The notes below the pieces were generated by a model. That model was given only the letters and a program-made list of their open reading frames with translations. It was not told the DNA's origin and searched no databases. A program made the translations under genes and the position numbers. A DNA stretch of 64,000 nucleotides from Candidatus Nanoarchaeia archaeon. Lineage in GTDB: Archaea; Nanobdellota; Nanobdellia; Woesearchaeales; GW2011-AR4. The stretch lies in assembly GCA_035293285.1 (NCBI GenBank), contig DATDOM010000093.1:36495-100494 (forward strand), in the 5' to 3' direction. This document shows positions 4,953 through 20,895 of the stretch, in pieces (the stretch's first letter is position 1; each line of letters starts with the position of its first letter).

Positions 4953-4956
4953 AAAA

Positions 4957-8026: not shown

Positions 8027-9183
8027 CAAACAATTTAACGAAAAGGGTTCTAAACATCGCACCAAGCGCAACTTTGGCAATAGATTCCAAGGCAAAGCAG
8101 CTTAAAAAAGATGGCAAGGATATGGTCATATTTGGCGCAGGCGAGCCAGATTTTAATACGCCGGATAACATAAAGCGGGCTGCGATAAAAGCTGTTGAAA
8201 ACAACATAACAAGATACACTCCCGTTGCAGGAATTCCTGAATTGAAAAAAGCAGTTTCCGACAAGTTCAGGAAATTCAACAAAATAAATTATGACACTTC
8301 TGAAATACTCATAAGCTGCGGCGGCAAGCATTCGCTTTACAACATCTGTATGGCAGTGCTTGAAAAAGGAGACGAGGCGATTTTGCCAGTGCCTTACTGG
8401 GTAAGCTATGACGAGATGATTAAGCTTTGTGATGCAAAGACTGTGTTTTGCAACACTGACGAGAAATTCAAGCTTACTGCAAAAGACGTTGAGGAAAAAA
8501 TAACAAAGCACACAAAACTGCTTTTTCTAAACAGCCCCTCAAACCCAAGCGGCGCTGTTGTTGAGCCTTCAGAAATCAGGAAGATTGCAAAGCTTGCAGT
8601 TGACCATAATTTTTATGTCATCTCTGATGAGGTTTATGAATACCTGATTTACGGAAAAGAGCACCTAAGCATTGCCTCAATAAATGACGAGATTAAAAAC
8701 CTCACAATCACTGCAAATTCTGTCTCAAAGACTTATGCGATGACTGGCTGGAGAATTGGATACCTTGGAGCAAACAGGGAGCTTGTTAATGCAATGACAA
8801 ACTTACAAGGGCACTCGACAAGCAATGCGTCAAACATAGCACAGATGGCTGCTATTGAAGCATTAAACGGGCCGCAGGATTCTGTTGCAAAAATGGTGAA
8901 GGCATTTGACGAAAGAAGAAAATTCATGTGGAAAAGGCTCAATGAAATGGGGCTTGAGTGTGTCGAGCCCGAAGGGGCATTTTATGCATTTCCTTCAATC
9001 AAAAGCACAAAACTGGACTCAACGAAATTCTGCTCAAAGCTTTTGGATGAGGCTTTAGTTGCCGTAGTTCCTGGAAACGCATTCGGTTCTGATGATTTTG
9101 TAAGGCTAAGTTACGCAACTTCAATGCAGGAAATAGAAAAAGGGATGGACAGAATTGAGAAGTGGCTTAAGACAATCAACTAG
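8023..9183 (+). CDS. aspC: Aspartate/aromatic aminotransferase (class I PLP-dependent)
   Basis: SVSKTYAMTGWRIGY lysine motif and NPSGAV; 386 aa. Confidence 0.85.
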   Translation: MTNNLTKRVLNIAPSATLAIDSKAKQLKKDGKDMVIFGAGEPDFNTPDNIKRAAIKAVENNITRYTPVAGIPELKKAVSDKFRKFNKINYDTSEILISCGGKHSLYNICMAVLEKGDEAILPVPYWVSYDEMIKLCDAKTVFCNTDEKFKLTAKDVEEKITKHTKLLFLNSPSNPSGAVVEPSEIRKIAKLAVDHNFYVISDEVYEYLIYGKEHLSIASINDEIKNLTITANSVSKTYAMTGWRIGYLGANRELVNAMTNLQGHSTSNASNIAQMAAIEALNGPQDSVAKMVKAFDERRKFMWKRLNEMGLECVEPEGAFYAFPSIKSTKLDSTKFCSKLLDEALVAVVPGNAFGSDDFVRLSYATSMQEIEKGMDRIEKWLKTIN

Positions 9184-9190
9184 TGTTACA

Positions 9191-9502
9191 ATGGATTCAT
9201 CAGCACTCGAGAAAATAGCGCAGGATTTGCCAGTACTGGACAACACAACAATTCAAATGGGAAGGCTGTCGAAATTCTATTCAGTCCATAGGGCTGAAAT
9301 AACCATTTGTGAAGGAGATCCTGGAAAACCTAAAAGCAGGCTTTTGTATGTTTATGGGGTTGACGATTCGAGAAAATGGATTTTATGCTCAGCAAGTGGT
9401 GTTCCCATTGAGTCAAATATGTATCTGGACCCAGTAGACCATATGCCAATAAGTATGGAGACAATAGTTGAGTACATTATATTGCAACAACAATCTATTT
9501 AA
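9191..9502 (+). CDS. Hypothetical protein
   Basis: ~104-aa ORF downstream of aspC. ORF-track start 9155 overlaps aspC, so the internal ATG at 9191 is preferred. No recognisable motif. Confidence 0.3.
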   Translation: MDSSALEKIAQDLPVLDNTTIQMGRLSKFYSVHRAEITICEGDPGKPKSRLLYVYGVDDSRKWILCSASGVPIESNMYLDPVDHMPISMETIVEYIILQQQSI

Positions 9503-9524
9503 ACCAAAATAAAATCTTATTCTT

Positions 9525-11000
9525 ATGCCTAATCACAATGTCTCAAGGGCGATGTCAACACAGCATCCTGACAACGTCAGCAACCCGTTCTTCACACACA
9601 ATTCTGAAATTGCAGGAGATGACGAGATAAAAGAGGCTTTTTACACTTATTCGCACATGCACTGCAAAGAACAGCTTTGGGACTGTGAGGGAAAGGAAGT
9701 TGACAATTATGTTGTGAAGAAGCTTTTTGCAAATTACGAGCCATATTTTAGAAAACACAAGCTCGGAAAAGACCTATTCTTGACTTTGAGAGTTCCAAAC
9801 CCCGATGTTGAAAAGAATGAAGCCAAAATCTTGCTTGAAACTCTTGAAAGCATTCCGAGAAACTTTGATGCCGCAAAACTTTTCTATGGGGAAGACATCG
9901 CGCCGATTTTTGAAATTGCGCTTCCAATGGCGTCCGATTACAGGCAATTGACAAGGATATCCCAATACTATAAAGAACATGTTGTCGGCAAGCAGCACAG
10001 CAAGCTTGGAAATGACATAAAAATTTCTGAATGGATTGGAAAATTCCAGCCTGAGAGCCTGAGGATGATTCCATTAATTGAGGAAAAAGAATACATCCTA
10101 AATCCTGAAAAAATCGTGGAAAAATATGTTTTGGGAGAGAAAATAAAGGAATATCAGAGGGTGTGGCTTGCAAGAAGCGACCCTGCACTTAACTACGGAA
10201 ATCTTGCAACAGTGCTTATGCTCAAAGTTTCACTTCAGAAAATAAGAAAGCTGCAAAAAAAGCTCTCAATAGACATGCTTCCTATTTTAGGATGCGGCAG
10301 CGCGCCGTTTCGTGGAAACTTCAAGCCGACAAATATAAAAAACTGCATAGCAGGCTATCCAAGCGTGCACACATATACTTTACAGTCAGCTTTCAAGTAT
10401 GACTACAACATAAAGGATGTAAATAATGCAGTTGAAGTGCTCAACAATTCGAGGCCGTCAGAGCCTGTTTCAGTTAACGAAAAACTTTGCATTCCAATAA
10501 TCGAGAAGCTTACAAAAGAATACCAAAAACAAATCAAGATACTTGTACCAATGATCAATGAGATGGTTCCTTATATCCCTTCAAGAAGGAAAAGAAAGCT
10601 GCACATAGGCCTTTTTGGGTATTCGAGAAACATGGGAGGAGTTAAGCTGCCAAGGGCGATAACATTTTGCGCATCACTTTATTCATACGGGCTTCCGCCT
10701 GAACTTATATCACTTGATTGCCTTAACCAAAAAGAACTTGATTTTATCAGGACATTCTATACCAACTTTGATAATGACTTAAGGGATTCGCTTACATTCC
10801 TAAACGAAGATAACCTTGATTTGTTCCCTCTCGAAATTTCAAAAAAAATCAAAAAAATAAGCAAGATGACTGACTTTGAGCCAAACGAGGCGCACAAGAA
10901 AATTACATCAATAATTGCACAGGATTTAAGCAAAAGAGACCACAAGCTGATTTCAGAAAACGTGACAAGGGCAGGATTTGTAAGGGGATTTTTGGGATAA
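9525..11000 (+). CDS. ppcA: Archaeal-type phosphoenolpyruvate carboxylase
   Basis: N-terminal RAMSTQHPDN motif and ~490-aa size are characteristic of atPEPC. Confidence 0.85.
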   Translation: MPNHNVSRAMSTQHPDNVSNPFFTHNSEIAGDDEIKEAFYTYSHMHCKEQLWDCEGKEVDNYVVKKLFANYEPYFRKHKLGKDLFLTLRVPNPDVEKNEAKILLETLESIPRNFDAAKLFYGEDIAPIFEIALPMASDYRQLTRISQYYKEHVVGKQHSKLGNDIKISEWIGKFQPESLRMIPLIEEKEYILNPEKIVEKYVLGEKIKEYQRVWLARSDPALNYGNLATVLMLKVSLQKIRKLQKKLSIDMLPILGCGSAPFRGNFKPTNIKNCIAGYPSVHTYTLQSAFKYDYNIKDVNNAVEVLNNSRPSEPVSVNEKLCIPIIEKLTKEYQKQIKILVPMINEMVPYIPSRRKRKLHIGLFGYSRNMGGVKLPRAITFCASLYSYGLPPELISLDCLNQKELDFIRTFYTNFDNDLRDSLTFLNEDNLDLFPLEISKKIKKISKMTDFEPNEAHKKITSIIAQDLSKRDHKLISENVTRAGFVRGFLG

Positions 11001-11001
11001 A

Positions 11002-12105
11002 ATGAAGCAGCTTTCGTCGCTTGAGATTCATTATTTGTCAAAGGAAATTTCTGATTTAAAGGACTCAAGGATTGACAAGATTTACCAGCCTGAAAAGAAT
11101 TTAATTTACTTCAGCCTTTACAAGTCAGGGCAGGGCAAGAAAATCCTTTCAATAAATGTCGGCAAGTCGCTTTTCATTTCTGAAAGCAAGGATTATGGGG
11201 AAACACTTGGATTTGGGATGCTTTTGAGAAAATACCTTGACGGAAACTTCCTTACTTCAATTGAGCAAGTTAATTCTGAGAGAATTGTAAAGTTTACATT
11301 TAATCTTAAGGATGACAAAAAACACCTTTATGTTGAATTTTTTGGAAAAGGAAATGCAATCCTTTGCAGTTCTGATGACATTATTATCAATGCGCTTGAG
11401 CATCACGAGTTTAAAGACAGGACAATAAAGCCAAAAATAAAGTATGAAAACCCGTCCAAAAAATTTGACATGTTCAAGCTTACTCAAAAAGAACTAAATG
11501 AGATGCTTTCAAGCTCAAAAAAAGACTCAATTGTAACGTGCCTTGCAACTGAGCTTGGGCTTGGGGGGATTTATTCTGAAGAGGCTTGCTTAAATTCGAA
11601 AATTTCAAAGAATTCCGCTCCAAAAGATATTGATGAAAAATTTGCTGCTATCTTGCTTGCATCAGTCAAGAAATTAATTTCCAAAAAAATCAGCGCAAAA
11701 GCAGTTTTTGAAAATGGAAACGTGATTGATGCCGTGCCTTTTGATATGGAGATTTATGCTTTAAAGGAAAAAAAGGATTTTGAGAGCTTTAGCTCGTCCC
11801 TTGAATTTTATTATTCGCAGTTTAAGGAAGTGAAGGAGACAAAGCAGGAGAAGGAGCTAAAATCAATGCAAAAAATGATTGAGATGCAACAAGCCAAAAT
11901 TTCCGAGTTTGAAGCAGAAGAAAAGGAACTCAGGGAGAAAGGAGAGCTTATTTATCAAAAATATTCTCTTGTCAAGAATGTGATGGATGAGCTGAACAAA
12001 ATTTCTTTAAAGCATTCGTGGAAGGAGATTAAAGAGAAGCTCAAAGGGCACAAAGTAATCAAAGAGATTAATGAGAAAGAGAAGAAAATAATTATTGAGG
12101 TTTGA
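11002..12105 (+). CDS. NFACT-family protein (Rqc2/FbpA homolog), N-terminal domain plus coiled coil; apparently truncated
   Basis: NFACT-N-like N-terminus (IHYLSKEISDLKDSRIDKIYQ...FFGKGNAIL) followed by an E/K-rich coiled coil. Only 367 aa, versus ~600+ aa for complete archaeal NFACT proteins. A gene remnant follows immediately. Confidence 0.5.
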   Translation: MKQLSSLEIHYLSKEISDLKDSRIDKIYQPEKNLIYFSLYKSGQGKKILSINVGKSLFISESKDYGETLGFGMLLRKYLDGNFLTSIEQVNSERIVKFTFNLKDDKKHLYVEFFGKGNAILCSSDDIIINALEHHEFKDRTIKPKIKYENPSKKFDMFKLTQKELNEMLSSSKKDSIVTCLATELGLGGIYSEEACLNSKISKNSAPKDIDEKFAAILLASVKKLISKKISAKAVFENGNVIDAVPFDMEIYALKEKKDFESFSSSLEFYYSQFKEVKETKQEKELKSMQKMIEMQQAKISEFEAEEKELREKGELIYQKYSLVKNVMDELNKISLKHSWKEIKEKLKGHKVIKEINEKEKKIIIEV

Positions 12106-12155
12106 TTGAGTAGACATCATTAAATCTTTCTGCTTTATACGTTCCAGCAGGCAAA

Positions 12156-12422
12156 TTGCCCCTTACACATTCTAAAATCAAAATAGAAGTTAGCCTACCT
12201 ATATGGTTTTCCCCGTTAAGCGCTAAAGCTCTGGCTTTGGACGATAAAATCGGAAGTTTTGAGCCTGGAAAAGAAGCTGATTTCCTTGTTATCAGAGATC
12301 CAAACACGCTTGGCAGATTTAATCTGAACAAAAAGCCTGAAGAAATTCTTTTAAGAATTATTTATGGAGCTACAAAAGAGCATATAGAGCAGGTTTATGT
12401 TCAAGGCAATCGGTTAAAATAA
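12156..12422 (+). pseudogene. C-terminal remnant of a metal-dependent amidohydrolase (e.g. deaminase family)
   Basis: 88-aa ORF with ALALDDKIGSFEPGKEADFLVI..., the typical extreme C-terminus of amidohydrolase-superfamily enzymes. No N-terminal part is present upstream. Confidence 0.45.
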
Positions 12423-12440
12423 ATTTCCTTTAATTCAAAC

Positions 12441-13181
12441 CTATTTCAGATTCTTAAAAGACTTGCTTATTTTTTCATTCCAGAATTCAGGAAGGCTGAA
12501 TGACAGCAACCCTTCAAATTCATCATCCCAGACATAAGTGTATTTTTCCTTGTCATCTTTGTTCTTGAACATTTTTGATGCTTTTTCATACATTTCCTTT
12601 ATTGCCTTTCTTTCAAAAGTTGATTGTAATAGGCTTGGCTCTTTAAACATCAAAGTGTCTGCCAGCCTTAATACATTGACGTCAACCAATGCCGAGTTTT
12701 GGGTTATGATGATTAATGTGAGGTTTTTATGCCTCGCAATTGCCATGAACTTGCTTAATTCCTTGTTCGGGCTTTTCATTGAATCTCGTGACGAGAACAA
12801 AATTGCGCCTTCGTCAATCAATGCTATTGAATTGTTTGGCACGCTTTCAATATTTTCTGACTTTTTTATGCTCCACGGAAGCTTTGCCTCTTCAAAACCT
12901 AAGCAATAGCACTTTCTTTTTGATTTTTTCATGAATAACTCAATTAATTTCATCCCAAAGGCAGTCTTTCCTGAGCCTCTTTTGCCTACTATTAGAATTA
13001 TTAGGCTTGTGTTTAGCAGCTTTTTGTAGAATGTTTCATAGTCTCCTTTCTTTGTTTCTTCAACTTCAAAAGGCTGATAATTAGTGTTTTTCTCTGTTTT
13101 TCTGAAAATGTCCAATATTCCCATGAAAATGACTATATCTGATTGGTATAAAAAGGATTTGGTGAATTTGACTTGTGTCAC
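12441..13181 (-). CDS. AAA+-like P-loop ATPase (IstB/DnaC-like minimal ATPase), hypothetical
   Basis: Walker A VGKRGSGKT, Walker B IALIDEGA ~45 aa later, sensor-1-like LIIITQN. No adjacent transposase. Confidence 0.55.
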   Translation of the reverse strand: MTQVKFTKSFLYQSDIVIFMGILDIFRKTEKNTNYQPFEVEETKKGDYETFYKKLLNTSLIILIVGKRGSGKTAFGMKLIELFMKKSKRKCYCLGFEEAKLPWSIKKSENIESVPNNSIALIDEGAILFSSRDSMKSPNKELSKFMAIARHKNLTLIIITQNSALVDVNVLRLADTLMFKEPSLLQSTFERKAIKEMYEKASKMFKNKDDKEKYTYVWDDEFEGLLSFSLPEFWNEKISKSFKNLK

Positions 13182-13227
13182 AAAAATAAGGGAAAGTTTA
13201 TTAAGAAAATATTAAAGTTATGATATA

Positions 13228-13590
13228 GTGGATAACGATACAACTATAGAAGAATTGAAAAATAAAGTAAAAAAATTCTGTGAAGAAAGAGACTGGGATC
13301 AATATCACAATGCAAAAGATTTAGCTATAGGTATTATAACAGAATCTTCTGAATTACTCGAACATTTTAGATTTAAATCAGAAAAAGAGATTGAAGGGTA
13401 TTTTGAAATTCCAGAAAAGAAAAAAGAAATTTCTGAAGAATTATCTGATATATTATATTTTGTTTTGAGACTATCACAAAAATATAATATAGACTTAACA
13501 ACGGAATTGAGTAAAAAAATTCAAAAAAACAAAGAAAAATACCCTGTTGAAAAATCTAGAGGGTCTAATAAAAAATATGATGAGATTTAA
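13228..13590 (+). CDS. MazG-like nucleotide pyrophosphohydrolase (all-alpha NTP-PPase, DCTPP1/YpjD-like)
   Basis: ELKNKVKKFCEERDWDQYHNAKDLAIGIITESSELLEHFRF ... EELSDILYFVLRLSQKYNIDL matches the MazG-like NTP-PPase EExxE...ExxD pattern; 120 aa. Confidence 0.8.
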   Translation: MDNDTTIEELKNKVKKFCEERDWDQYHNAKDLAIGIITESSELLEHFRFKSEKEIEGYFEIPEKKKEISEELSDILYFVLRLSQKYNIDLTTELSKKIQKNKEKYPVEKSRGSNKKYDEI

Positions 13591-13592
13591 AA

Positions 13593-15587
13593 ATGCTGAA
13601 TAGACTAACAATTTATAACGCACCGAAAAAGCAATTTTTTAGTGATGTTTTAGTTAATAAATTTGCAGATATAATGCAAGAAAATTTTTCAAATTCTTAT
13701 GGTCAAAAAGTAGGAGATTCCGAGTTTAATTCTTGGATAGATACTGGAAAAGTAATTAAAAATTTAATTGAGCTTGGCGGTTTAGAAAATATTTATGTTT
13801 CATTTGAATATCAGATTCCTTATAGGCAACAAAGAATTGATTGTTTATTATTTGGAAAAAATAAAAATGGAAAGGGTACAGTCATACATATTGAGATGAA
13901 ACAATGGAAACAAGTAGAAGCATTAGAATGTGAAGGGAATTTTATTGAAACTTATACTGGAAGAGATAAACGAAAGGTCGCACACCCTTCACAACAAGTT
14001 CAAGGATACCATAATTATTTAATTGGATTTGTAGAAATATTTGAAGAAAATGAAACATGTTTATTTGGTTATGCTTATTGTCCAAATTACGATAAAAAAG
14101 AAGGAGAAGGGTTGTTTGACGCAAAATATAGTGAAGTTGTTAATAAGTTTCCTATTTACACAAAAAAGGATATAGAAAAATTGGCAGATAGATTGAAAGA
14201 ATTATTGTGCCAGGAAGACGGTTTCGACATATTTAATAAATTTATGAACTCTCCCATAAGACCTTCGAGAAAACTTTTGGATAGTGCATCAAAAGTTATT
14301 AAACAAGAATCTGATTTTAATTTAATCGATGATCAAATATATGCAAGAAATGTGATTATTGATAAAATAAAAAGAGGAGAAACAAAAAACGAAAAAAATG
14401 TAGTCATCGTAAAGGGTGGACCTGGTACTGGAAAAACAGTAATTGCCTTACATATTTTAGCAGAATTTTCAGGACATAAAGATAAAAAATACAAAATCTT
14501 TTTTTCATCAAGGTCAAAACCATTAATTGAAGCAATAAAATATAAAATGGAAAGGGGGCAAAAAGCTGGAGAAGTTAATGCAAAAATACTTTTTACAAGT
14601 TTGCATCCATATTCCCCAACAAGGATATCTGAATGTGATTTAGACATTTTAATTGTTGATGAAGCACACAGAATTGGGGAAAAATCAGACCATAGATTTA
14701 CTAAAAAAGAGTATAGAACTAATATGCCTCAAGTTGAACAATTAATCAGATGTGCAAAAACATCTATTTTTTTTATTGATGATAAGCAAGTTATTAGGGG
14801 GGCAGAAGTAGGAAATACCCAATTAATCAAAAGAACCGCTGAGAGTCTGGGAAGAAACATTGAAGAATGGGAATTGACTTCGCAGTTTAGATGTAATGGG
14901 TCGGATAATTATTTGGATTGGTTAGAATCTATATTAGGGTACACAACTGAAAAACGAATTCTTAAAAAAGAGGATAATTTTGATTTTCAAATTATAGATT
15001 CTCCAGATAGACTTTACGAAATAATAAAAGGAAAAAATTCCTTGAAGAAAATGAGTGCAAGAATTGTTGCAGGCTATTGTTGGCCTTGGTCTACAAAATT
15101 AAATGCTAACGGGGAGTTAGCAAACGATGTTAAAATTGGAAACTTTGAAATGCCTTGGGAGACTCACGGAGACATTAAGCCTCCAGAAGGTTATGTTAAG
15201 TGGTATGAATGGGCATATAAACCTGAAGGAATTAAACAAGTTGGATGTATTTATACTGCGCAGGGTTTTGAGTTTGATTATATAGGGGTAATTATAGGTT
15301 CTGACCTAAAATATGATAAACTAAGAGATTGTTTAGTTGGAAATATTTTGGGTACAAAAGACCCAATTCTTAAGAGAAGCAAAGATAGATTTGATGAATA
15401 TGTAAGAAATATTTATCGAGTTTTAATGTCTAGGGGAATGAAAGGATGCTTCGTCTATTTTGTTGATAGGGAAGTTGAGAATTATTTTAAGTCAAGAATC
15501 CATTATGTAGACTCTTTTAATGATTATATCTCTCAATCATCTGATAAATTGGTCATAGCAGAAAAACAAAAAGAATACAAAAAATAA
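13593..15587 (+). CDS. PD-(D/E)xK nuclease domain + DUF2075/Schlafen-like SF1 helicase fusion protein
   Basis: N-terminus has IDCLLF...VIHIEMKQW (D...ExK). Then Walker A GGPGTGKT, DEAH-type Walker B LIVDEAHRI, FFIDDKQ, QFRCNGSDNYLDWL and C-terminal YTAQGFEFDYIGVIIG, all DUF2075 hallmarks. Starts 3 nt after the MazG-like gene. Confidence 0.8.
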   Translation: MLNRLTIYNAPKKQFFSDVLVNKFADIMQENFSNSYGQKVGDSEFNSWIDTGKVIKNLIELGGLENIYVSFEYQIPYRQQRIDCLLFGKNKNGKGTVIHIEMKQWKQVEALECEGNFIETYTGRDKRKVAHPSQQVQGYHNYLIGFVEIFEENETCLFGYAYCPNYDKKEGEGLFDAKYSEVVNKFPIYTKKDIEKLADRLKELLCQEDGFDIFNKFMNSPIRPSRKLLDSASKVIKQESDFNLIDDQIYARNVIIDKIKRGETKNEKNVVIVKGGPGTGKTVIALHILAEFSGHKDKKYKIFFSSRSKPLIEAIKYKMERGQKAGEVNAKILFTSLHPYSPTRISECDLDILIVDEAHRIGEKSDHRFTKKEYRTNMPQVEQLIRCAKTSIFFIDDKQVIRGAEVGNTQLIKRTAESLGRNIEEWELTSQFRCNGSDNYLDWLESILGYTTEKRILKKEDNFDFQIIDSPDRLYEIIKGKNSLKKMSARIVAGYCWPWSTKLNANGELANDVKIGNFEMPWETHGDIKPPEGYVKWYEWAYKPEGIKQVGCIYTAQGFEFDYIGVIIGSDLKYDKLRDCLVGNILGTKDPILKRSKDRFDEYVRNIYRVLMSRGMKGCFVYFVDREVENYFKSRIHYVDSFNDYISQSSDKLVIAEKQKEYKK

Positions 15588-15590
15588 ACT

Positions 15591-16040
15591 TCAATTCTTA
15601 TGCTTAATTTCAATTAAAAACATTCTTCCGTCTGTTGAAAGCAGTTTGATATCAACCAAGTCTTCTTTATGCAGATTGTTAGTCAGTTCTTTTGGAAACC
15701 TAAAAAAGAACGTTTTACCATCATAATTCATGTTTCTTTCTACTGTTATTGTATTTTCATTTAGTAATTGTTTAACTATGAGGAATTTTTCAAATTTCTT
15801 GGCCTGTTCAAAATCAACATATTCTTTTTTGCACGTCTTGCACTGCCAAACATCATAAGCAAACTCAATATGACCATAAGATACTTTTTTGCCTGTCAAA
15901 ACAGTCTTTTTCCCATGGCATTGAAAAGGCCCTTTAAACGAGCTTTCTTCTAACTTGATATTGGCTTCTTGCCCCATATCTCTTGTTTTAAGATTATAAA
16001 ACGGCTCTTTTTCAAGTTCTTGCTGATATTTGGATTTCAT
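15591..16040 (-). CDS. YgiT-type zinc-finger protein (antitoxin-like)
   Basis: CHGKK...(n)...CKTCKK C2C2 arrangement. Overlaps the upstream DUF4258-like gene by 4 nt. Confidence 0.45.
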   Translation of the reverse strand: MKSKYQQELEKEPFYNLKTRDMGQEANIKLEESSFKGPFQCHGKKTVLTGKKVSYGHIEFAYDVWQCKTCKKEYVDFEQAKKFEKFLIVKQLLNENTITVERNMNYDGKTFFFRFPKELTNNLHKEDLVDIKLLSTDGRMFLIEIKHKN

Positions 16041-16297
16041 TTTTTATTATACCTGTTTATTTGCGGTTCTGATGATGGATAAGCCGTTATGACATTTGCA
16101 ATTGGCTCATCATATTTGAATATCATAGTTATGTAACGAACATAGTGTGTTATTGATATGTAAATTTTATCTTCTTGCCTGATAATTTTAGGCTTTCCGT
16201 GTTTAATTGCCTCCCAGAGTTCATCTATTCCTATGCCATGTTTGTATAATATTTTCTCCTGAACGTCCGGACTTATATGCAATTTTAAGTTTTTCAT
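16037..16297 (-). CDS. DUF4258-like small protein (toxin-like partner of the YgiT-ZnF protein)
   Basis: 86 aa, HISPDVQEKILYKHGIGIDELWEAIKHGKPKIIRQEDKIYI resembles the DUF4258 consensus. 4-nt overlap with the downstream ZnF gene, as in TA operons. Confidence 0.4.
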   Translation of the reverse strand: MKNLKLHISPDVQEKILYKHGIGIDELWEAIKHGKPKIIRQEDKIYISITHYVRYITMIFKYDEPIANVITAYPSSEPQINRYNKK

Positions 16298-16320
16298 GGC
16301 AATAAATTTTGTACTTCATA

Positions 16321-16351
16321 TAGTACGCTGAATAGTACGTTTATATAAACC
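16321..16351 (-). promoter_or_regulatory. Promoter/operator region of the YgiT-ZnF/DUF4258 operon with TATA-like box and ACGTAC repeats
   Basis: Minus-strand reading tttatataaacgtactattcagcgtacta: a TATA-like box followed by two (A/G)CGTACT units directly upstream of the 16297 start. Confidence 0.35.
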
Positions 16352-17010
16352 TATCTGACAATTAATGAATTATAACTATGGTTTCCAACAATCAAATGAT
16401 CAAGAACTTTTATTCCAATTAAATCTCCAGTTTCAACAAGCACCCTATTAACTCTGTAGTCTTCATCTGAAGGTTCAACATTTCCTGATGGATGATTATG
16501 AACCAATATAATAGAATTAGCAGAGTTCTTTATTGCTTCCTTAAACACCTCCCTAGGATGAACCAATGAAGAATTCAATGTCCCGATTGAAATAACTTCA
16601 TCTTTGATTATTTTGTTTTTGGAATCAAGAAACACTGCAATAAAATGCTCTTTTTTCAAATCCTTGAGCTTTTCAATATAGTATGAAGCGATATCTGAAG
16701 GGTTTTTAATCACTTTCTCGCAGATTTTGCCTGAATTGACTCTTTTGCTTAGCTCAAATGCAGCAATGATTTTAGCCCCTTTGGCTAAGCCTATGCCTTT
16801 TATTTTCATTAGTTCCTGTAAAGACAGGGAATTAAGGTTTTCAAGCCCAAAACTGGAAATTAGCCTGTTTGATAAATCCAGGACATTTTCTCCTTTGGTG
16901 CCTTTTTCAAGAATCAAAGCAAGCAATTCAGGATCACTAAGGAAGCTAGAATTACTGGATTTTAATCTCTCCCTCGGCCTTTGTTCTAAGGCAATATCTT
17001 TCATCAGCAT
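16351..17010 (-). CDS. radC: RadC-like JAB/MPN-domain protein
   Basis: HhH region (LMKIKGIGLAKGAKI) plus the JAMM motif HNHPSG...D. Confidence 0.85.
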   Translation of the reverse strand: MLMKDIALEQRPRERLKSSNSSFLSDPELLALILEKGTKGENVLDLSNRLISSFGLENLNSLSLQELMKIKGIGLAKGAKIIAAFELSKRVNSGKICEKVIKNPSDIASYYIEKLKDLKKEHFIAVFLDSKNKIIKDEVISIGTLNSSLVHPREVFKEAIKNSANSIILVHNHPSGNVEPSDEDYRVNRVLVETGDLIGIKVLDHLIVGNHSYNSLIVR

Positions 17011-17077
17011 TCTAGTAAGAACATCATAAAACTATTAATAATTGACACTTATAAATTGTATAAAAATACAAAATATC

Positions 17078-17500
17078 CTAATAAAATTCCTCCAAAAACT
17101 CCTTTGGGCTTAGAATCCTTACACCTTTATAATTTTTCAAAGAAAGCAAGTGATTATCTCCGGATATTATAATTGATTTAATTGATAAAGCACAATTTAT
17201 GAATTTATTATCTTCTTCATCATTCAAAACTGCATTTTCATCAAAAGAAGATTTGGTCAAAACTGATTTATCAATAAGATTATCCATAATGAATTTTTTG
17301 TAATCAGCACCAATATATTTTTTGAACAACGGCCTTTCTATAACTTTTTTAATTTCATCTAAAATCTCATATGTTACATAGTTGACAATCTCATCTTTTA
17401 ACAATAACTCGAAGATTTTTGCGGGATTGCCATCACTTGAAATGGCAGCAGATATTATGATATTTGTATCTAAAACTACTTTAACCTTTTCTTGACTCAT
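17078..17500 (-). CDS. PIN-domain protein (VapC-like toxin)
   Basis: VVLDTNIIISA N-terminal acidic motif; 140 aa. Overlaps the upstream antitoxin gene. Confidence 0.65.
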   Translation of the reverse strand: MSQEKVKVVLDTNIIISAAISSDGNPAKIFELLLKDEIVNYVTYEILDEIKKVIERPLFKKYIGADYKKFIMDNLIDKSVLTKSSFDENAVLNDEEDNKFINCALSIKSIIISGDNHLLSLKNYKGVRILSPKEFLEEFY

Positions 17501-17726
17501 TTATCTCTTCCCCAATCTTTTCAGGAGACAATTTTTTTGTATTGTCCCTGAATTTTTTGAATTCCTTAACCAACGAAGTTGTATCCACTTTTTTCATAAC
17601 TATTGTGTTTTTATCAAAGGCACTAACTGCGAATATTGTATTTTCAAGAGCTCCTACTTCTTCCCTTATTTCCTTAGGTATTATGATTTGCCCTCTTTGC
17701 GACATTTTAGCTGTTTCTATGTTCAT
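17481..17726 (-). CDS. AbrB/SpoVT/MazE-family antitoxin
   Basis: MSQRGQIIIPKEIREEVG swapped-hairpin motif; 81 aa. Overlaps the PIN gene by ~20 nt. Confidence 0.6.
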   Translation of the reverse strand: MNIETAKMSQRGQIIIPKEIREEVGALENTIFAVSAFDKNTIVMKKVDTTSLVKEFKKFRDNTKKLSPEKIGEEINESRKG

Positions 17727-17742
17727 TTTGAATCACCAGTTA

Positions 17743-17782
17743 AAAGTACGTTTTACGTATTTATAAACTTTACGTAATATTG
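17743..17782 (-). promoter_or_regulatory. Promoter/operator region of the AbrB-PIN operon with TATA-like box flanked by ACGTAAA repeats
   Basis: Minus-strand reading caatattacgtaaagtttataaatacgtaaaacgtacttt: tttataaa flanked by ACGTAAA units, 17-55 nt upstream of the antitoxin start at 17726. Shares the ACGTA(A/C) unit with the other TA promoter. Confidence 0.35.
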
Positions 17783-17849
17783 TAAACTTATCACTATTGG
17801 TAAGCTATTTGATTTAATATTAATACTAAATTCTTATAATTTCTATAAA

Positions 17850-18215
17850 TTAAACATTCTTTGCAGAAACGGCAATACTAGTATTGGCACCAAAATCCTG
17901 TTTATTTTTTATTCCCAAATTTCTTTCAACCTGTTCATCCACCACAGCCCAGTAAAACTCTATAAACTTCTGAACTTTTTTATTTTTTATGTTAAGCCTG
18001 TACATTTGCGCCCTGCCTACTTTTCTTACAAGAGTTATCCACTTATCTTTCAAAAGCTCCTTTTTTAGCTGCTTGACTGAAGGATAGCTTACATTTGAGA
18101 ACTTGGCAATATCTTTAAGTGAATAATCAAAATCCTGAGAAACTATCAGAAAATCAAGTACCTTGTTTTTCGGACTGCTCCCTTCTATTTCCAAAAATGC
18201 GGATTTTTCTGTCAT
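17850..18215 (-). CDS. Winged-helix transcriptional regulator (MarR/ArsR-like)
   Basis: LKDIAKFSNVSYPSVKQ...LVRKVGRAQMYRLN helix-turn-helix plus wing. Confidence 0.45.
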   Translation of the reverse strand: MTEKSAFLEIEGSSPKNKVLDFLIVSQDFDYSLKDIAKFSNVSYPSVKQLKKELLKDKWITLVRKVGRAQMYRLNIKNKKVQKFIEFYWAVVDEQVERNLGIKNKQDFGANTSIAVSAKNV

Positions 18216-18287
18216 AATTTGTGATAAAACTCCTAAATATAAAAAGCTTTCTTTTTATCCTATAAGGGATAAATTTTTATCTCTTAC

Positions 18288-18584
18288 TTATAGCATCAAT
18301 ACCATTGGAATTATGGAGCAGCTTCCTGTTTCTTTAGTAATCTCCTTTATTTTATCAAATCTGTCCATGTTAAGATAATACTTCCATCCATGCTCTTTTT
18401 TCTTTTTTTGGCAGATGTTTTGCTTGACTAATGATTCAAGCACAACTTTTCCTATTTCTTTGCTTGGAAGGCCGGAAAGCACATTTTCCCCATACATTGA
18501 GCCTTTGCCATAGCAAGTTGATTTGTGAAGCTTTCTGACTATGAACCTGCTGTATTTGACATAATCACTTTTGTGAACTTTCAT
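18288..18584 (-). CDS. Hypothetical small protein
   Basis: 98-aa ORF of plausible size with no recognised motif. Confidence 0.3.
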   Translation of the reverse strand: MKVHKSDYVKYSRFIVRKLHKSTCYGKGSMYGENVLSGLPSKEIGKVVLESLVKQNICQKKKKEHGWKYYLNMDRFDKIKEITKETGSCSIIPMVLML

Positions 18585-18696
18585 ATAAAATTACACTAAA
18601 AGAATTATCAATTTATTAAAACTCACTCTATAAAATATAAATTTTTACAGGATTTTTGCTTTAGAAACCTTTTTAAACCCTCCATTCATTCTTGGT

Positions 18697-18813
18697 ATTG
18701 GACGGTCATAGGGGCCTGGTTCACCCGATCCCATTCCGAACTCGGCAGTTAAGAAAGCCTCCGTTTCCAATTGTACTGCACTTACGTGCGGGAACCTGGG
18801 AAAGCTGTCCACC
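18697..18813 (+). rRNA. rrf: 5S ribosomal RNA
   Basis: GGTCATAG...CCGATCCCATTCCGAACTCGGCAGTTAAG...GTACTGC...GGGAA matches the universal 5S loop/helix motifs. Helix I forms between 5' TGGACGG (18699-18705) and 3' CTGTCCA (18805-18811). An oligo-T run follows. Ends are approximate to +/-5 nt. Confidence 0.85.
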
Positions 18814-18820
18814 TTTTTTT
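18814..18820 (+). terminator. Oligo-T tract immediately after the 5S rRNA (archaeal-type terminator)
   Basis: TTTTTTT directly 3' of the 5S helix I. Confidence 0.45.
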
Positions 18821-18870
18821 CAAATTTTTGAAACTCGTTTGAATTGTTCTCTAGCTATCTTATATTCAAT

Positions 18871-18941
18871 TCTCACCCTAATGGGGTGAGTTATGCGGGT
18901 TTTGTGAACAATGTATGCCGAGCTAATGGCGAGGCGTAACC
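18871..18941 (+). repeat. 71-nt conserved intergenic element, family 1, copy 1
   Basis: tctcaccctaatggggtgag...acaatgtatgccgagctaatggcgaggcgtaac. Shares ...ACAATGTATGCCGAGC.A.TGGCGAGGC... with the copies at 20661 and 26991. Confidence 0.6.
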
Positions 18942-18975
18942 AAATAAGGATTTAATATAGAATAACTCCAAACAA

Positions 18976-19737
18976 TCAAATTTTCTTCCCAACAAAAATA
19001 AACCCGCCCGAAAGAACTCTCTTAAGAATTCCCCTGTAATAATCATCCTCTTCCTTGTTCAAAAAAATCTTTTTCACTATTTTTAGCCCTGCATTTTCAA
19101 AAAGCGAGCGAAATTCATCAAAGCTGAACCAGTGCATATATGTTTTATTCAGGATTTTGCTGTGATAAAAATAATAATCTCCAATTTCTAGGTCTTTTTC
19201 CCTAAAAAAATAAGTCTTGAGAAGCCAGGAGTACATGTCAGGCTCTTTTATCCCTGCTAATCTGTTATGAGCATGGACAATAACAAATCCATTTTTTTTT
19301 GCAACCCTGAAAAGCTCGTTCATTGACTTTTGTCTTTTGGCTTTAGTCGGAATGCATCCAAAGCTTGAATACATCGAAATAACATAATCAAATGAATCAC
19401 TTTTTATTTTCGACAAGTCTGAAATGTCATAATTGTAAAGAACTGCCTTTATCCTGTTTTTCTTCAGGGTTTTTGCAGATACTTTAATCATGAATTTATT
19501 ATAGTCATTGCCATAAACCTTAAACCCTTTTTTGGCAAAGTGCACCAAATGCCTGCCTGTTCCCATTGTTGCATCAAAAAGCGATCCCTTTTTTCTTAGC
19601 AAAGAATCAAGAAACCTTGTGTCAAAGTCAAAATGCCCTTTCACATCTTCTTCATAATCAAGGTAGTTTTCTGCGTATTCCTTGCTGTTTTTTTCCCGCC
19701 TGACTGCATTTTCAATCCTCTTACTCAGCTTTGCCAT
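18976..19737 (-). CDS. Class I SAM-dependent methyltransferase
   Basis: LFDATMGTGRHLVHFAKKGFKVYGNDYN motif I/II region. Confidence 0.65.
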   Translation of the reverse strand: MAKLSKRIENAVRREKNSKEYAENYLDYEEDVKGHFDFDTRFLDSLLRKKGSLFDATMGTGRHLVHFAKKGFKVYGNDYNKFMIKVSAKTLKKNRIKAVLYNYDISDLSKIKSDSFDYVISMYSSFGCIPTKAKRQKSMNELFRVAKKNGFVIVHAHNRLAGIKEPDMYSWLLKTYFFREKDLEIGDYYFYHSKILNKTYMHWFSFDEFRSLFENAGLKIVKKIFLNKEEDDYYRGILKRVLSGGFIFVGKKI

Positions 19738-19739
19738 TC

Positions 19740-20537
19740 TTAGAAATTAAGCAAATCCTTTTTTGAATGTATGTGCATTTCCTTTTCAGAGCTTAAGTGC
19801 CCGTTTAGAAACCCTTTCTCTGCAAGTAGTGGAAAAACGTCAAACTCGAGGCTTGCGCCGCTGTAATCAAAGATATGGGGCTCAGTCACAAAAATAGGGG
19901 AAAAGACAAGATAGATGTCTGATTTTTTTGGCTTTTGGGTAAATGCAAGGACTTTTGAGCCTTCAACTTTCACAGTGCCTTTCTCGCTTGGCCTGGACGA
20001 TGTTGTAAGCATTATTGTTGTTATTGCACCCTGCCTGACGTGGTCATTCCAAAGCTGCTCTACATTGATTTTACTGAATATGATGTCTCCATACACTACC
20101 AGAAAATTTGAATTTATTTTTCCTTTCAAAAGCCGTAATGAGTCTGCAGTTCCTTTTGACGACTTTTCCTCAATGTAGTTAATCTTTACGCCGTATTCAT
20201 TGCCTTCTTTTAGCATCTCAAAAATTCTTGTAAGCAGGTTATGCCTGGCAACTATGTAGATTGTCTTAAAGTTAGTCTCGCGCAGTTTTTTTAGGGCAAG
20301 CTCAATCACCGAGGAATTTTTTATTTTTGCTGTGGGCCTGTATTCATCGCCTGAAATCCTCAAGTGGCCTTCGTCGCCTCCAAGCAAAATAACTGCAGTC
20401 TTGTTCTCGCCTAGCGAGTTATTGACAAGATGCTCGATTGCCTGCGAGCGGTTTCTGATGTATATGTTGTCGACAATTGCGTCTATATCCCTTAAAGTGT
20501 TCTCGTTTATTGTTATTGATATTTTTGACTTGACCAT
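19740..20537 (-). CDS. Nucleotidyltransferase (NTP_transferase family) with N-terminal ribbon-helix-helix domain
   Basis: N-terminal RNRSQAIEHLV (CopG/RHH-like), then VILLGGDEG...GTADSLR...VVYGDIIF sugar-phosphate nucleotidyltransferase-like core. Confidence 0.55.
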   Translation of the reverse strand: MVKSKISITINENTLRDIDAIVDNIYIRNRSQAIEHLVNNSLGENKTAVILLGGDEGHLRISGDEYRPTAKIKNSSVIELALKKLRETNFKTIYIVARHNLLTRIFEMLKEGNEYGVKINYIEEKSSKGTADSLRLLKGKINSNFLVVYGDIIFSKINVEQLWNDHVRQGAITTIMLTTSSRPSEKGTVKVEGSKVLAFTQKPKKSDIYLVFSPIFVTEPHIFDYSGASLEFDVFPLLAEKGFLNGHLSSEKEMHIHSKKDLLNF

Positions 20538-20601
20538 TTTATTAATCTTAAATCTTTTGACTTTTTCTTAAACCCTTCGCTTCGCTCTATTATCTTCACT
20601 C

Positions 20602-20631
20602 GGCAAATTTTGACTAGCACTAAAATTTGCC
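20602..20631. promoter_or_regulatory. 30-bp palindromic site (10-bp arms GGCAAATTTT / AAAATTTGCC, 10-bp spacer), candidate operator
   Basis: Perfect inverted repeat 65-95 nt upstream of the RHH-nucleotidyltransferase gene start (minus strand), in the divergent promoter region shared with ugd. Confidence 0.4.
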
Positions 20632-20660
20632 TCGATTTATTACACCAATTTCAATTAACT

Positions 20661-20725
20661 TTCGCTCCAATGAAGGCGAATGTGCGAATTGCTAACAATG
20701 TATGCCGAGCAATTGGCGAGGCCTA
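20661..20725 (+). repeat. Conserved intergenic element, family 1, copy 2 (more diverged)
   Basis: ttcgctccaatgaaggcgaa...acaatgtatgccgagcaattggcgaggc. Hairpin arms differ from the other copies but remain complementary (ttcgc/gcgaa). Confidence 0.5.
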
Positions 20726-20895
20726 TCTAAAAGTCGTCACAAAGACGGCTTATTTAACTCATAATTTGTCCTAACTTAAAAACCCAAATACGACGGATTT
20801 AAACTAATTCTAAACCTACAAATTAAATTTCAAAATTGGTGGCATAAAGTAGGATAATGGTAAGATATTTAAATACATTGTGCATTTTCAGGTGC

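What the first reader, a model, noticed from the sequence alone, without database searches (positions are those of the whole stretch)
13228..15587. MazG-like NTP pyrophosphatase + nuclease/helicase fusion: candidate uncharacterised two-gene defence module
Sequence: a 120-aa all-alpha MazG/DCTPP1-like NTP-PPase (EExxE...ExxD motifs) ends 3 nt before a 664-aa protein. That protein has an N-terminal PD-(D/E)xK nuclease motif (IDCLLF...IHIEMKQW) and a DUF2075/Schlafen-like SF1 helicase (GGPGTGKT, LIVDEAHRI, FFIDDKQ, QFRCNGSD, YTAQGFEFDY).
Context: the pair lies in an island with two TA loci, RadC and a P-loop ATPase. Established background: nuclease-helicase single proteins such as Nhi and nucleotide-pool-manipulating enzymes are each known in anti-phage immunity, and the DCTPP1-type enzyme hydrolyses modified dNTPs. 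I know of no described system pairing these two, so the coupling is an inference. A plausible logic is that the NTP-PPase removes non-canonical (virus-modified) dNTPs while the nuclease-helicase attacks invading or replicating DNA.
Basis: partly seen in the sequence, partly recalled or inferred. Interest (0 to 1): 0.8.

Follow-up and report, generated by a model that had tools for sequence, protein, structure and literature searches.

The report
Conserved MazG plus nuclease-helicase defence cassette
A small dCTP-pyrophosphatase-like enzyme and a nuclease-helicase of the Nhi/Schlafen-helicase type form a two-gene cassette that recurs in very diverse archaea and bacteria, usually among defence genes, making it a well-supported but untested candidate antiviral system that I could not find described anywhere.

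Summary
Both genes are real and the domain calls hold. Gene 1 (13228-13590) is a DCTPP1/RS21-C6-type MazG-like NTP pyrophosphatase with all four metal-binding acidic residues. Gene 2 (13593-15587) is a NERD-like PD-(D/E)xK nuclease fused to a DUF2075/SLFN SF1B helicase, the same architecture as Nhi.

The decisive test was positive. In 59 of 76 assessable genomic loci holding a relative of the helicase, a MazG-like gene sits immediately upstream on the same strand, mostly overlapping the helicase start. These loci span DPANN, Thermoplasmata, Methanosarcina, CPR, Bacteroidota, Bacillota and Proteobacteria. In the converse test, 49 of 68 close MazG relatives are followed by the helicase. No other gene is conserved around the pair. 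Neighbours are highly variable and rich in defence and mobilome genes (McrBC, HNH, Fic, HEPN, Mokosh, type I RM). In the window the pair lies in a low-GC island.

PADLOC models for Nhi, AbiO and PDC-S41 match only weakly, and no paper in the held library pairs these two genes. Defence function and the role of MazG remain inference. Verdict: a new variant of a known kind (Nhi-like nuclease-helicases) with a conserved nucleotide-pool partner. Interest is moderately high.

The parts
13197..13204 (+). TATA-like box (TTTATTAA) about 27 nt upstream of the MazG GTG. Putative archaeal promoter of a leaderless two-gene operon.
   Evidence: Sequence read. Inference only. The bacterial-type promoter scan was no better than shuffles.
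13228..13590 (+). Gene 1: DCTPP1/RS21-C6-type MazG-like all-alpha NTP pyrophosphatase, 120 aa, GTG start
   Evidence: PF12643 E=1.6e-12. PDB 2a3q/6sqw dCTP pyrophosphatase 1 E=3e-20. N-terminus matches homologues. Same gene call on the source contig.
13342..13449 (+). Metal-binding motifs of gene 1: E39-x-x-E42 and E70/E71-x-x-D74, plus aromatic residues W23, F49 and F78 at the positions of the base-contacting W47, W73 and Y102 of mouse RS21-C6
   Evidence: Invariant columns. Alignment to 2a3q. The role of the mouse residues is from my own knowledge of the RS21-C6 structure papers.
13593..15587 (+). Gene 2: nuclease-helicase, 664 aa. Starts 2 nt after the stop of gene 1.
13593..14300 (+). N-terminal NERD-like PD-(D/E)xK nuclease domain (residues 1-236). 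Catalytic candidates are E72, D83 (13839-13841), E101 and K103 (13893-13901), and Q135.
   Evidence: Invariant residues in 37 sequences down to 25% identity. NERD hits in 14 of 37 members. AF2 alpha-beta-beta-beta-alpha-beta core with pLDDT 80-93. No structural match to a nuclease was obtained.
14394..15467 (+). DUF2075 / Schlafen-group-3 SF1B helicase domain (residues 268-625). Walker A GGPGTGKT at 14415-14438, DEAH at 14658-14669.
15507..15587 (+). C-terminal tail of 26 residues that is absent from the 20 aligned homologues
   Evidence: Alignment. Present in all strain variants. No function assigned.
16351..17010 (-). RadC-like JAB protein. Possible facultative third neighbour of the cassette.
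   Evidence: PF04002 E=8e-45. RadC homologues directly flank the cassette in 14 other loci. That is 9 of 28 cassettes with a window-like MazG against 2 of 36 others.

Best explanation
This is a horizontally mobile two-gene cassette that most likely defends the cell against viruses or other invading DNA.

Gene 2 is the effector. It is a single polypeptide in which an ATP-driven SF1B helicase of the DUF2075/Schlafen type carries a NERD-type PD-(D/E)xK nuclease, and it unwinds and cuts foreign or replicating DNA in the way shown for Nhi.

Gene 1 is co-translated with it. The stop and start are 2 nt apart here and overlap in most relatives. It is a DCTPP1-like pyrophosphatase that converts pyrimidine dNTPs to dNMP plus PPi, most plausibly 5-modified dCTPs.

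I propose that gene 1 keeps modified cytosine nucleotides out of newly made DNA. This would starve viruses that build their genomes from modified dCTP. It would also stop modified nucleotides released by DNA breakdown from being re-incorporated into the host chromosome.

Shown: the domain identities, intact catalytic residues, the conserved adjacency, and the variable defence-rich surroundings. Inferred: the defence function, Nhi-like action, the MazG substrate, and its role.
For: Conserved adjacency:
- 59 of 76 assessable loci have MazG immediately upstream on the same strand, with gaps of -16 to +43 nt.
- The converse holds for 49 of 68 MazG loci.
- The pair is annotated on the Halalkalicoccus and Priestia plasmids.
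- MazG-like ORFs are otherwise rare in these loci, at about 6 non-adjacent copies among roughly 900 ORFs.

Cassette behaviour:
- Only these two genes are conserved, in 87 and 56 loci. The next most frequent family occurs in 9 loci or fewer.
- The 141 immediate neighbours fall into 140 Pfam families.

Defence context:
- Neighbours include McrB/McrC, HNH_2, YhcG, Fic/SoFic, HEPN, Mokosh MkoA/C, PDC candidates and type I RM.
- PF09848 is used as an Abi/defence marker.
- Nhi and Nhi-like have the same architecture and are validated defences.

Horizontal transfer:
- The archaeal window protein is 57-62% identical to Flavobacteriia proteins.
- The window cassette has GC 0.25-0.34 against about 0.39 in the flanks.
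- Relatives occur on 95 plasmids.

Link to modified cytosine:
- Where MazG is absent, the upstream slot holds SRA-HNH, HNH_2, DUF3578 (McrB-N-like) or DUF3883 genes.
- Unpaired MazG copies sit beside Dcm+Vsr.
- The closest solved homologue is dCTP pyrophosphatase 1.

Catalytic residues of both enzymes are invariant.
Against: - There is no experimental evidence for any member of this family.
- PADLOC has no model for it. Nhi, AbiO and PDC-S41 match only partially at 36-72 bits, so the Nhi analogy rests on architecture alone.
- No domain that reads modified DNA was found in either protein.
- The MazG substrate cannot be read from sequence. H38 of mouse RS21-C6 is not conserved.
- The MazG and helicase distance matrices barely correlate (Pearson 0.10, Spearman 0.01). 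This argues against a tightly co-evolving protein complex.
- About a fifth of family members lack MazG altogether, so the helicase can evidently work without it.
- The 80 loci analysed are the best of at least 595 hits. More distant members on Streptomyces, Nocardiopsis and Hymenobacter plasmids lack MazG.
- Some family members carry a LexA-like S24 domain, which also fits a DNA-damage role.
Confidence: 0.58

Rival explanations
1. This is a DNA-repair or replication-stress module, not an immune system. The nuclease-helicase processes damaged or stalled DNA, and the MazG enzyme is a house-cleaning pyrophosphatase that removes damaged or non-canonical dNTPs from the pool used for repair synthesis.
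For: DCTPP1/MazG-type enzymes are classic house-cleaning enzymes (homology; their role is established knowledge). About 15 of 80 family members end in a LexA-like Peptidase_S24 domain with an AAG-type cleavage motif, tying them to RecA/SOS signalling. RadC is a frequent neighbour. MutT lies nearby on the Priestia plasmid. No defence model recognises the family.
Against: The distribution is patchy, with 57-62% identity between archaeal and bacterial members. The window cassette lies in a low-GC island. The family occurs on plasmids. There is no conserved synteny with repair genes, since 140 Pfam families occur among 141 neighbours and these are dominated by restriction, toxin and mobilome genes. 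Sensing of DNA damage or ssDNA is also a known trigger of defence systems (PMC12904381), so the S24 fusion does not discriminate between the two readings.
Confidence: 0.2
2. This is a selfish or competitive module of mobile elements. It is carried by plasmids, integrated elements or viruses for their own benefit, for example exclusion of rival elements, addiction, or manipulation of the host nucleotide pool during their replication.
For: Relatives occur on 95 plasmid records, in 7 IMG/VR contigs of which several carry MazG upstream, and in 4 phage records. MazG genes are common in phages. Transposases and integrases lie next to several copies. RadC, Fic, ORF6N and toxin-antitoxin neighbours are typical mobilome genes.
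Against: Viral hits are very few compared with at least 595 hits among species-representative genomes. Most of the plasmids are large and non-mobilizable (82 of 95). No replication, integration or conjugation gene is consistently linked. This reading overlaps with defence, because defence systems are themselves often carried by mobile elements.
Confidence: 0.12
3. There is no functional coupling. The MazG gene is an independent gene that happens to share an operon slot with the helicase.
For: The distance matrices of the two proteins are almost uncorrelated. About 20% of helicases lack MazG and 28% of close MazG relatives lack the helicase.
Against: The same order, strand and near-zero or negative spacing recur in 59 of 76 loci across many phyla, despite complete turnover of all other neighbours. 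The adjacency also persists across shuffled partner lineages and in 26%-identical relatives with an inserted HNH gene. Chance or hitch-hiking does not produce this pattern.
Confidence: 0.03

Closest known systems
Nhi (SERP2475, Staphylococcus epidermidis; Bari et al., bioRxiv 10.1101/776245) and 'Nhi-like' (Millman et al., bioRxiv 10.1101/2022.05.11.491447)
   Same: A single polypeptide with an N-terminal PD-(D/E)xK nuclease and a C-terminal DUF2075 (PF09848) SF1 helicase. Found in defence islands and on plasmids. This is the likely model for how gene 2 acts (nicking and unwinding of phage DNA).
   Different: There is no meaningful sequence membership. The PADLOC Nhi model matches only part of the helicase (E=2.4e-13, residues 241-437). 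Nhi and Nhi-like are described as stand-alone single-gene systems, whereas this family has a conserved, translationally coupled MazG partner in about 78% of loci. The nuclease here is NERD-like. The Nhi trigger (phage SSB) is unknown for this family.
PADLOC candidate PDC-S41 (untested single-gene candidate) and AbiO
   Same: DUF2075 proteins of similar length. The N-terminal region of PDC-S41 aligns with the N-domain of some family members. PDC-S41 genes are sometimes the immediate neighbour of this cassette (4 of 141 neighbours, E down to 1e-288).
   Different: It is a paralogue, not the same family. This family scores 44-72 bits against PDC-S41, whereas true members score E=1e-288. PDC-S41 and AbiO are catalogued without a MazG partner.
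DCTPP1 / RS21-C6 (mouse and human dCTP pyrophosphatase 1; PDB 2a3q, 2oig, 6sqw, 7mu5)
   Same: Gene 1 aligns over its full length (E=3e-20) with all four metal-binding acidic residues and aromatic residues at the base-contacting positions. Both are small all-alpha MazG-like folds.
   Different: Gene 1 is a prokaryotic 120-aa protein encoded in an operon with a nuclease-helicase, and its substrate is untested. DCTPP1 is a stand-alone housekeeping enzyme that clears dCTP and 5-modified dCTPs (the latter is from my own knowledge).
Modification-dependent (type IV) restriction modules linked to DUF2075 NTPases (McaZI group; Lutz et al., NAR 2019, PMC6765204)
   Same: That paper noted DUF3427-DUF3883 endonucleases adjacent to DUF2075 NTPases. 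Here, family members that lack MazG have DUF3883, SRA-HNH, HNH_2 or DUF3578/McrB-N genes in the same upstream slot.
   Different: In the window and in most relatives the upstream partner is an enzyme that acts on free nucleotides, not a reader-nuclease of modified DNA. Neither window protein contains a modification-reading domain.
Nucleotide-depletion defences (dCTP deaminase, dGTPase; the PUA-Calcineurin-CE-HAD system, with rare MazG-like replacements, bioRxiv 10.64898/2026.01.15.699771; the MazG/MazG-C predicted system in DefensePredictor, PMC13092281)
   Same: A nucleotide-hydrolysing enzyme used in, or predicted for, immunity. MazG has been proposed but not validated as a defence domain.
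   Different: Those systems have different partners (PUA/HAD, kinase/NMAD/UDG) and a different MazG subfamily. None of them includes a DUF2075 nuclease-helicase.

Membership tests
Pfam PF09848 SLFN-g3_helicase (DUF2075) | Full-length match to the family HMM above the gathering score | tested here: met
   E=6.8e-86, 289 bits against a cut-off of 24, profile positions 1-354 of 354
Pfam PF09848 SLFN-g3_helicase (DUF2075) | Intact P-loop NTPase/SF1 helicase motifs (Walker A GxxGxGKT, Walker B DExx, arginine fingers) | tested here: met
Nhi (nuclease-helicase immunity) | N-terminal PD-(D/E)xK nuclease plus C-terminal DUF2075 helicase in one polypeptide | tested here: met
   Architecture as described for Nhi.
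Nhi (nuclease-helicase immunity) | Sequence membership (full-length match to the Nhi model) | tested here: not met
   PADLOC Nhi E=2.4e-13, 47.6 bits, covering only residues 241-437 and profile positions 180-333 of 470. The same holds for nine other family members.
Nhi (nuclease-helicase immunity) | Stand-alone single-gene system | tested here: not met
   A MazG-like gene is immediately upstream in 59 of 76 loci
Nhi (nuclease-helicase immunity) | Protects against phage. Nuclease and bipolar helicase activities demonstrated. | not testable with these tools
   Needs expression and biochemistry
PADLOC PDC-S41 | Full-length match to the model | tested here: not met
   E=5.6e-21, 72.5 bits in three fragments. 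True members among the neighbours score E=1e-288.
Pfam PF12643 MazG-like / DCTPP1 (RS21-C6) family | HMM match above the gathering score and homology to solved DCTPP1 | tested here: met
   48 bits against a cut-off of 27. PDB 2a3q/6sqw E=3e-20 over residues 4-119.
Pfam PF12643 MazG-like / DCTPP1 (RS21-C6) family | Four acidic metal ligands (ExxE ... ExxD) | tested here: met
   E39, E42, E71 and D74 are invariant and E70 is nearly so. They align with E63, E66, E95 and D98 of mouse RS21-C6.
Pfam PF12643 MazG-like / DCTPP1 (RS21-C6) family | Preference for dCTP and 5-modified dCTP | not testable with these tools
   Aromatic residues are kept at the W47/W73/Y102 positions, but H38 is not conserved. 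Needs enzyme assays.
Pfam PF08378 NERD (PD-(D/E)xK superfamily) | HMM match above the gathering score | tested here: inconclusive
   The window protein scores 16.7 bits against a cut-off of 22.1 (E=0.011). 14 of 37 family N-domains match, best E=1.7e-6.
Pfam PF08378 NERD (PD-(D/E)xK superfamily) | Catalytic D ... (D/E)xK on consecutive beta-strands of an alpha-beta-beta-beta-alpha-beta core | tested here: met
   D83, E101 and K103 (plus E72) are invariant down to 25% identity. They lie on predicted strands 78-89 and 95-102 at pLDDT 80-93. No structural hit to a nuclease was recovered.
Type IV (modification-dependent) restriction system | A domain that reads modified bases (SRA, EVE/PUA, McrB-N, DUF3578) | tested here: not met
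   None in either window protein. Such domains occur only in neighbouring or substituting genes in other loci.
Type II toxin-antitoxin pair | A small antitoxin with a DNA-binding fold next to a toxin, as a two-gene operon | tested here: not met
   Gene 1 is an enzyme with intact catalytic residues and has no DNA-binding fold. Whether gene 2 is toxic was not tested.

The most novel reading that the evidence does not exclude
The cassette is a previously unrecognised immune logic in which a nuclease-helicase effector is obligatorily paired with a DCTPP1-like sanitiser of modified dCTP. The same pairing of a Schlafen-type helicase and DCTPP1 exists as separate antiviral and housekeeping genes in animals.

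In this reading the pyrophosphatase is not a passive helper. It decides specificity. By destroying virus-made modified dCTP, it forces the virus to synthesise unmodified, cleavable DNA. It also prevents the host from writing foreign marks into its own chromosome.

A sub-branch of the family adds a LexA-like self-cleaving domain, so that RecA-ssDNA filaments would switch the effector on.
Probability: 0.3. Interest if true: 0.8.

Novelty: new variant of a known kind. Interest (0 to 1): 0.62.

Why it matters
If confirmed, this adds a widespread system to the defence catalogue. It has at least 595 hits among species-representative genomes and about 1,000 clusters at 50% identity, in both archaea and bacteria. 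It would be the first validated use of a MazG/DCTPP1-type enzyme in prokaryotic immunity, and one of few candidate systems well represented in DPANN archaea and CPR bacteria. Both components have human counterparts with roles in antiviral defence and nucleotide-pool control (SLFN helicase domain, DCTPP1), so the pairing could inform how these activities cooperate. The alternative occupants of the upstream slot (MazG, SRA-HNH, HNH, McrB-N-like, DUF3883) give a ready-made comparative series for asking how a common nuclease-helicase chassis is directed at modified DNA.

Tried and rejected
1. Structural proof of the nuclease fold did not succeed.
- The single-sequence N-domain model was useless at pLDDT 40.
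- A profile search of PDB sequences with the N-domain found nothing.
- The nuclease call therefore rests on NERD profile hits, invariant residues and predicted topology.

2. Filing gene 2 as Nhi, AbiO or PDC-S41 was rejected, because all PADLOC matches are partial and weak.

3. A co-evolution (mirror-tree) test gave almost no correlation. I read this as partner shuffling, not as support for a tight complex.

4. A search for a third conserved gene found none. RadC is the only recurrent neighbour and occurs in a minority of loci.

5. A phage origin was rejected, with only 7 IMG/VR and 4 phage records.

6. The bacterial promoter and terminator scan was no better than shuffles, as expected for an archaeon.

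7. There are no tRNA genes at the island borders.

8. Literature searches for any described MazG-DUF2075/Nhi pairing found none. The MazG system in DefensePredictor is a different one.
Full report
**Observation**

The same gene calls appear on the 167-kb source contig and in several other samples. That contig is a metagenome-assembled Nanoarchaeia/DPANN archaeon according to the name attached to the identical MazG protein. The MazG stop (TAA, 13588-13590) is followed by 2 nt and then the helicase ATG. A TATA-like TTTATTAA lies about 27 nt upstream of the GTG, which would fit a leaderless archaeal operon. That last point is inference.

**Gene 1**

- It matches Pfam MazG-like PF12643 (E=1.6e-12, above the cut-off).
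- It aligns over its whole length with solved dCTP pyrophosphatase 1 / RS21-C6 structures (E=3e-20).
- In 20 relatives the four acidic metal ligands (E39, E42, E71, D74) are invariant.
- Aromatic residues occupy the positions of the base-contacting W47, W73 and Y102 of the mouse enzyme.
- It is therefore predicted to be an active NTP pyrophosphatase of the DCTPP1 type. Its substrate cannot be read from sequence.

**Gene 2**

- Residues 268-625 match the whole PF09848 model (SLFN group 3 helicase, formerly DUF2075) at E=6.8e-86.
- Walker A, DEAH and the later helicase motifs are invariant.
- Residues 1-236 have no Pfam hit above threshold in the window protein. In a 37-sequence alignment reaching 25% identity, E72, R81, D83, E101, K103, Q104, W105, H131, P132 and Q135 are invariant.
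- NERD (PF08378, a PD-(D/E)xK family) matches 14 of the 37 N-domains, best E=1.7e-6.
- The AF2 model predicts an alpha-beta-beta-beta-alpha-beta core at pLDDT 80-93, with D83 and E101-x-K103 on adjacent strands.
- I could not obtain a structural match to a nuclease, so the nuclease assignment is well supported but not structurally proven.

**Is the pairing conserved?**

The best 80 were fetched. They come from DPANN archaea, Thermoplasmata, Methanosarcina, Thaumarchaeota, Bathyarchaeia, CPR bacteria, Omnitrophota, Elusimicrobia, Bacteroidota, Chloroflexi, Bacillota, Acidobacteriota, Lysobacter, Akkermansia, Fibrobacter and Prevotella.
- Of the 76 loci with upstream sequence, 59 have a MazG-like ORF immediately upstream on the same strand. 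Gaps range from -16 to +43 nt, and most overlap the helicase start, which is the usual sign of translational coupling.
- Two further loci have MazG one gene further upstream, one has it divergent, and 14 have none.
- In the converse test, 80 metagenomic loci were found with a MazG alignment. Of the 68 assessable, 49 (72%) are followed directly by the helicase.
- The pair is annotated as 'nucleotide pyrophosphohydrolase' plus 'DUF2075 domain-containing protein' on plasmids of Halalkalicoccus jeotgali and Priestia aryabhattai.
- On B. thuringiensis pBMB400, a relative only 26% identical to the window helicase sits in an NTP-pyrophosphohydrolase / HNH / helicase arrangement. Relatives at this identity level occur in 63 Bacillus plasmid records, but I inspected the gene arrangement only on pBMB400.

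**Cassette behaviour and context**

- Clustering all ORFs of 87 loci shows that only the helicase (87 loci) and MazG (56 loci) are conserved. The next families occur in 9 loci or fewer: TPR, HNH_2, RadC, Fic, YhcG, McrC-like, McrB, ORF6N and DUF4143.
- The 141 immediate neighbours fall into 140 different Pfam families. They include HEPN, SoFic, SocA/Panacea, HNH, McrB-N and Mokosh components, several PADLOC candidate families, and in four cases a paralogous DUF2075 gene that matches PDC-S41 at E=1e-288.
- The Priestia copy lies between a restriction endonuclease, MutT, a DUF3578 protein and a type I RM system.
- In the window, GC falls from about 0.39 to 0.25-0.34 across roughly 12.7-18.7 kb. 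That stretch also holds a P-loop ATPase, RadC and a PIN/AbrB pair, and it ends at a 5S rRNA gene.
- The archaeal protein is 57-62% identical to proteins of Flavobacteriia, which implies transfer between domains.
- The family is rare in viral collections but present on 95 plasmids.
- The N-domain alone finds 1,045 cluster representatives at E<=0.001 in a library of 1.84 billion.

**Relation to known systems**

- The architecture is that of Nhi and of 'Nhi-like', which are validated single-gene defences. PF09848 is routinely used as a defence marker.
- The PADLOC models for Nhi, AbiO and PDC-S41 match the window protein and nine diverse relatives only partially, at 36-72 bits. This is a separate DUF2075 family that PADLOC v2.0.0 does not model.
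- Nine full-text searches found no paper that links MazG or a nucleotide pyrophosphohydrolase with DUF2075 or Nhi.
- MazG has been predicted, but not validated, as a defence domain in different systems: MazG plus MazG-C kinase, and MazG replacing Calcineurin-CE in PUA-HAD systems.
- The library lacks most subscription journals, so a prior description cannot be excluded.

**What the partner might do**

Two observations point to modified cytosine.

- Where MazG is missing, the upstream slot is often filled by genes typical of modification-dependent restriction. These are SRA-HNH (L057), HNH_2 (L073, and between MazG and the helicase in Bacillus), DUF3578/McrB-N-like (Priestia, together with MazG), and DUF3883 proteins on Streptomyces and Hymenobacter plasmids.
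- Unpaired close relatives of the MazG gene lie beside C5-cytosine methyltransferases with Vsr, a Bsp6I-type restriction enzyme, HNH_2, a Cas4-like nuclease and a McrB-like ATPase.

The closest characterised homologue clears dCTP and 5-modified dCTPs (this is from my own knowledge of DCTPP1). I therefore commit to the view that gene 1 hydrolyses modified pyrimidine dNTPs. This would deny them to viruses and keep them out of host DNA, while gene 2 degrades the invader in an Nhi-like way. This step is inference.

The MazG and helicase distance matrices are almost uncorrelated (Pearson 0.10, Spearman 0.01). Partners have therefore been exchanged between cassette lineages while the adjacency was kept. 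That fits two cooperating enzymes better than an obligate co-evolving complex.

**Rivals**

- A repair or house-cleaning role is the main alternative. It is supported by the LexA-like S24 fusions and by the housekeeping reputation of MazG enzymes. The mobile, patchy and defence-embedded distribution weakens it.
- A selfish mobile-element function overlaps with defence and is not excluded.
- Chance adjacency is effectively ruled out.

**Verdict**

It is a new variant of a known kind. I rate interest at 0.62. The cassette is widespread, testable, and linked to eukaryotic immune and nucleotide-control proteins, but its effector class is already known and no function has been shown.

Noticed in passing
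L009, L021, L036, L039, L047, L048, L051, L056, L058, L059, L062, L066, L067, L070, L071 (C-terminal about 150-190 aa of the helicase ORF, e.g. L039:2634-3233, L047:7804-8403): About 15 of 80 family members carry a C-terminal LexA-like Peptidase_S24 domain (Pfam E down to 3.9e-25). All 15 have the GxSM serine motif, and most have an AAG/VAAG-type motif about 35 residues upstream, like the LexA self-cleavage site. This suggests that RecA-ssDNA-triggered self-cleavage regulates these nuclease-helicases. The window protein lacks this domain.
   Followed up: partly
window 16351-17010 (-); L002, L005, L006, L008, L019, L044, L094, L097, L101, L102, L103, L110, L161: RadC-like JAB genes lie directly beside the cassette in 14 other loci from several archaeal phyla and a CPR bacterium. 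In some they are about 100 nt upstream on the same strand, and in others immediately downstream. This applies to 9 of 28 cassettes with a window-like MazG against 2 of 36 others. RadC may be a facultative third component or a preferred travelling companion.
   Followed up: partly
L169 (B. thuringiensis pBMB400) 4323-7914; L072 4361-7905; L171 (Priestia plasmid) 4548-7866; L057 5088-7875; L179 and L181: The upstream slot of the helicase is modular. The variants seen are MazG-HNH-helicase, MazG-unknown 389-aa gene-helicase, DUF3578(McrB-N-like)-MazG-helicase, SRA-HNH-helicase and DUF3883-helicase. Most of the alternative partners are typical of modification-dependent restriction.
   Followed up: partly
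L118 2556-5238; L141 3962-6345; L136 3971-6767; L108 3926-5319; L117 2824-4357; L106 3974-6240: Close relatives of the MazG gene that lack the helicase sit next to C5-cytosine methyltransferase plus Vsr (once with a Bsp6I-type restriction enzyme), HNH_2, a Cas4-like PD-(D/E)xK nuclease or a McrB-like AAA_5 ATPase. This DCTPP1-like subfamily may be a general accessory of cytosine-methylation and restriction modules.
   Followed up: partly
54 paired loci among L001-L080: Pairwise identities of MazG and of the helicase are almost uncorrelated (Pearson 0.10, Spearman 0.01). Window-like MazG genes occur with helicases that are 65% and about 38-40% identical to the window's. Partners have been shuffled between cassette lineages.
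   Followed up: yes
L178 1404-5390; L169 1-803 and 6001-7914; four neighbours in alignment A4: A second, paralogous DUF2075 gene often lies next to or near the cassette. It matches PADLOC PDC-S41 at E down to 1e-288, so tandem DUF2075 nuclease-helicases occur.
   Followed up: no
window 12156-12422 (+): This 88-aa ORF is only the C-terminal end of an amidohydrolase (weak PF01979 hit on the source contig). It is a gene remnant at the left border of the low-GC island, consistent with an insertion having disrupted the gene.
   Followed up: no
window 18698-18813 (+): A 5S rRNA gene (Rfam 59.4 bits) lies at the right border of the low-GC island. No other RNA gene was found in 10000-22000, and no tRNA gene was found anywhere in the 64-kb window.
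   Followed up: no
window 12441-13181 (-): A divergently oriented P-loop ATPase has weak Zot, nSTAND3 and PADLOC mad8 matches. It does not recur next to the cassette in any other locus. Some gene calls start it 19 codons later, which widens the shared promoter region to about 100 nt.
   Followed up: partly
window 15591-16040 (-) and 16037-16297 (-): Two small genes overlap by 4 nt and lie between the helicase and RadC. One has a weak zinc-ribbon DUF7479 match and the other has no family.
   Followed up: partly
window 15507-15587 (+): The window helicase has a 26-residue C-terminal tail that is absent from the 20 aligned homologues but present in all strain variants of this contig.
   Followed up: no
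L168 (Halalkalicoccus jeotgali plasmid) 8921-10060: In the haloarchaeal plasmid copy, an endonuclease/exonuclease/phosphatase-family gene follows the helicase 22 nt downstream on the same strand. It may be an additional nuclease component in that lineage.
   Followed up: no
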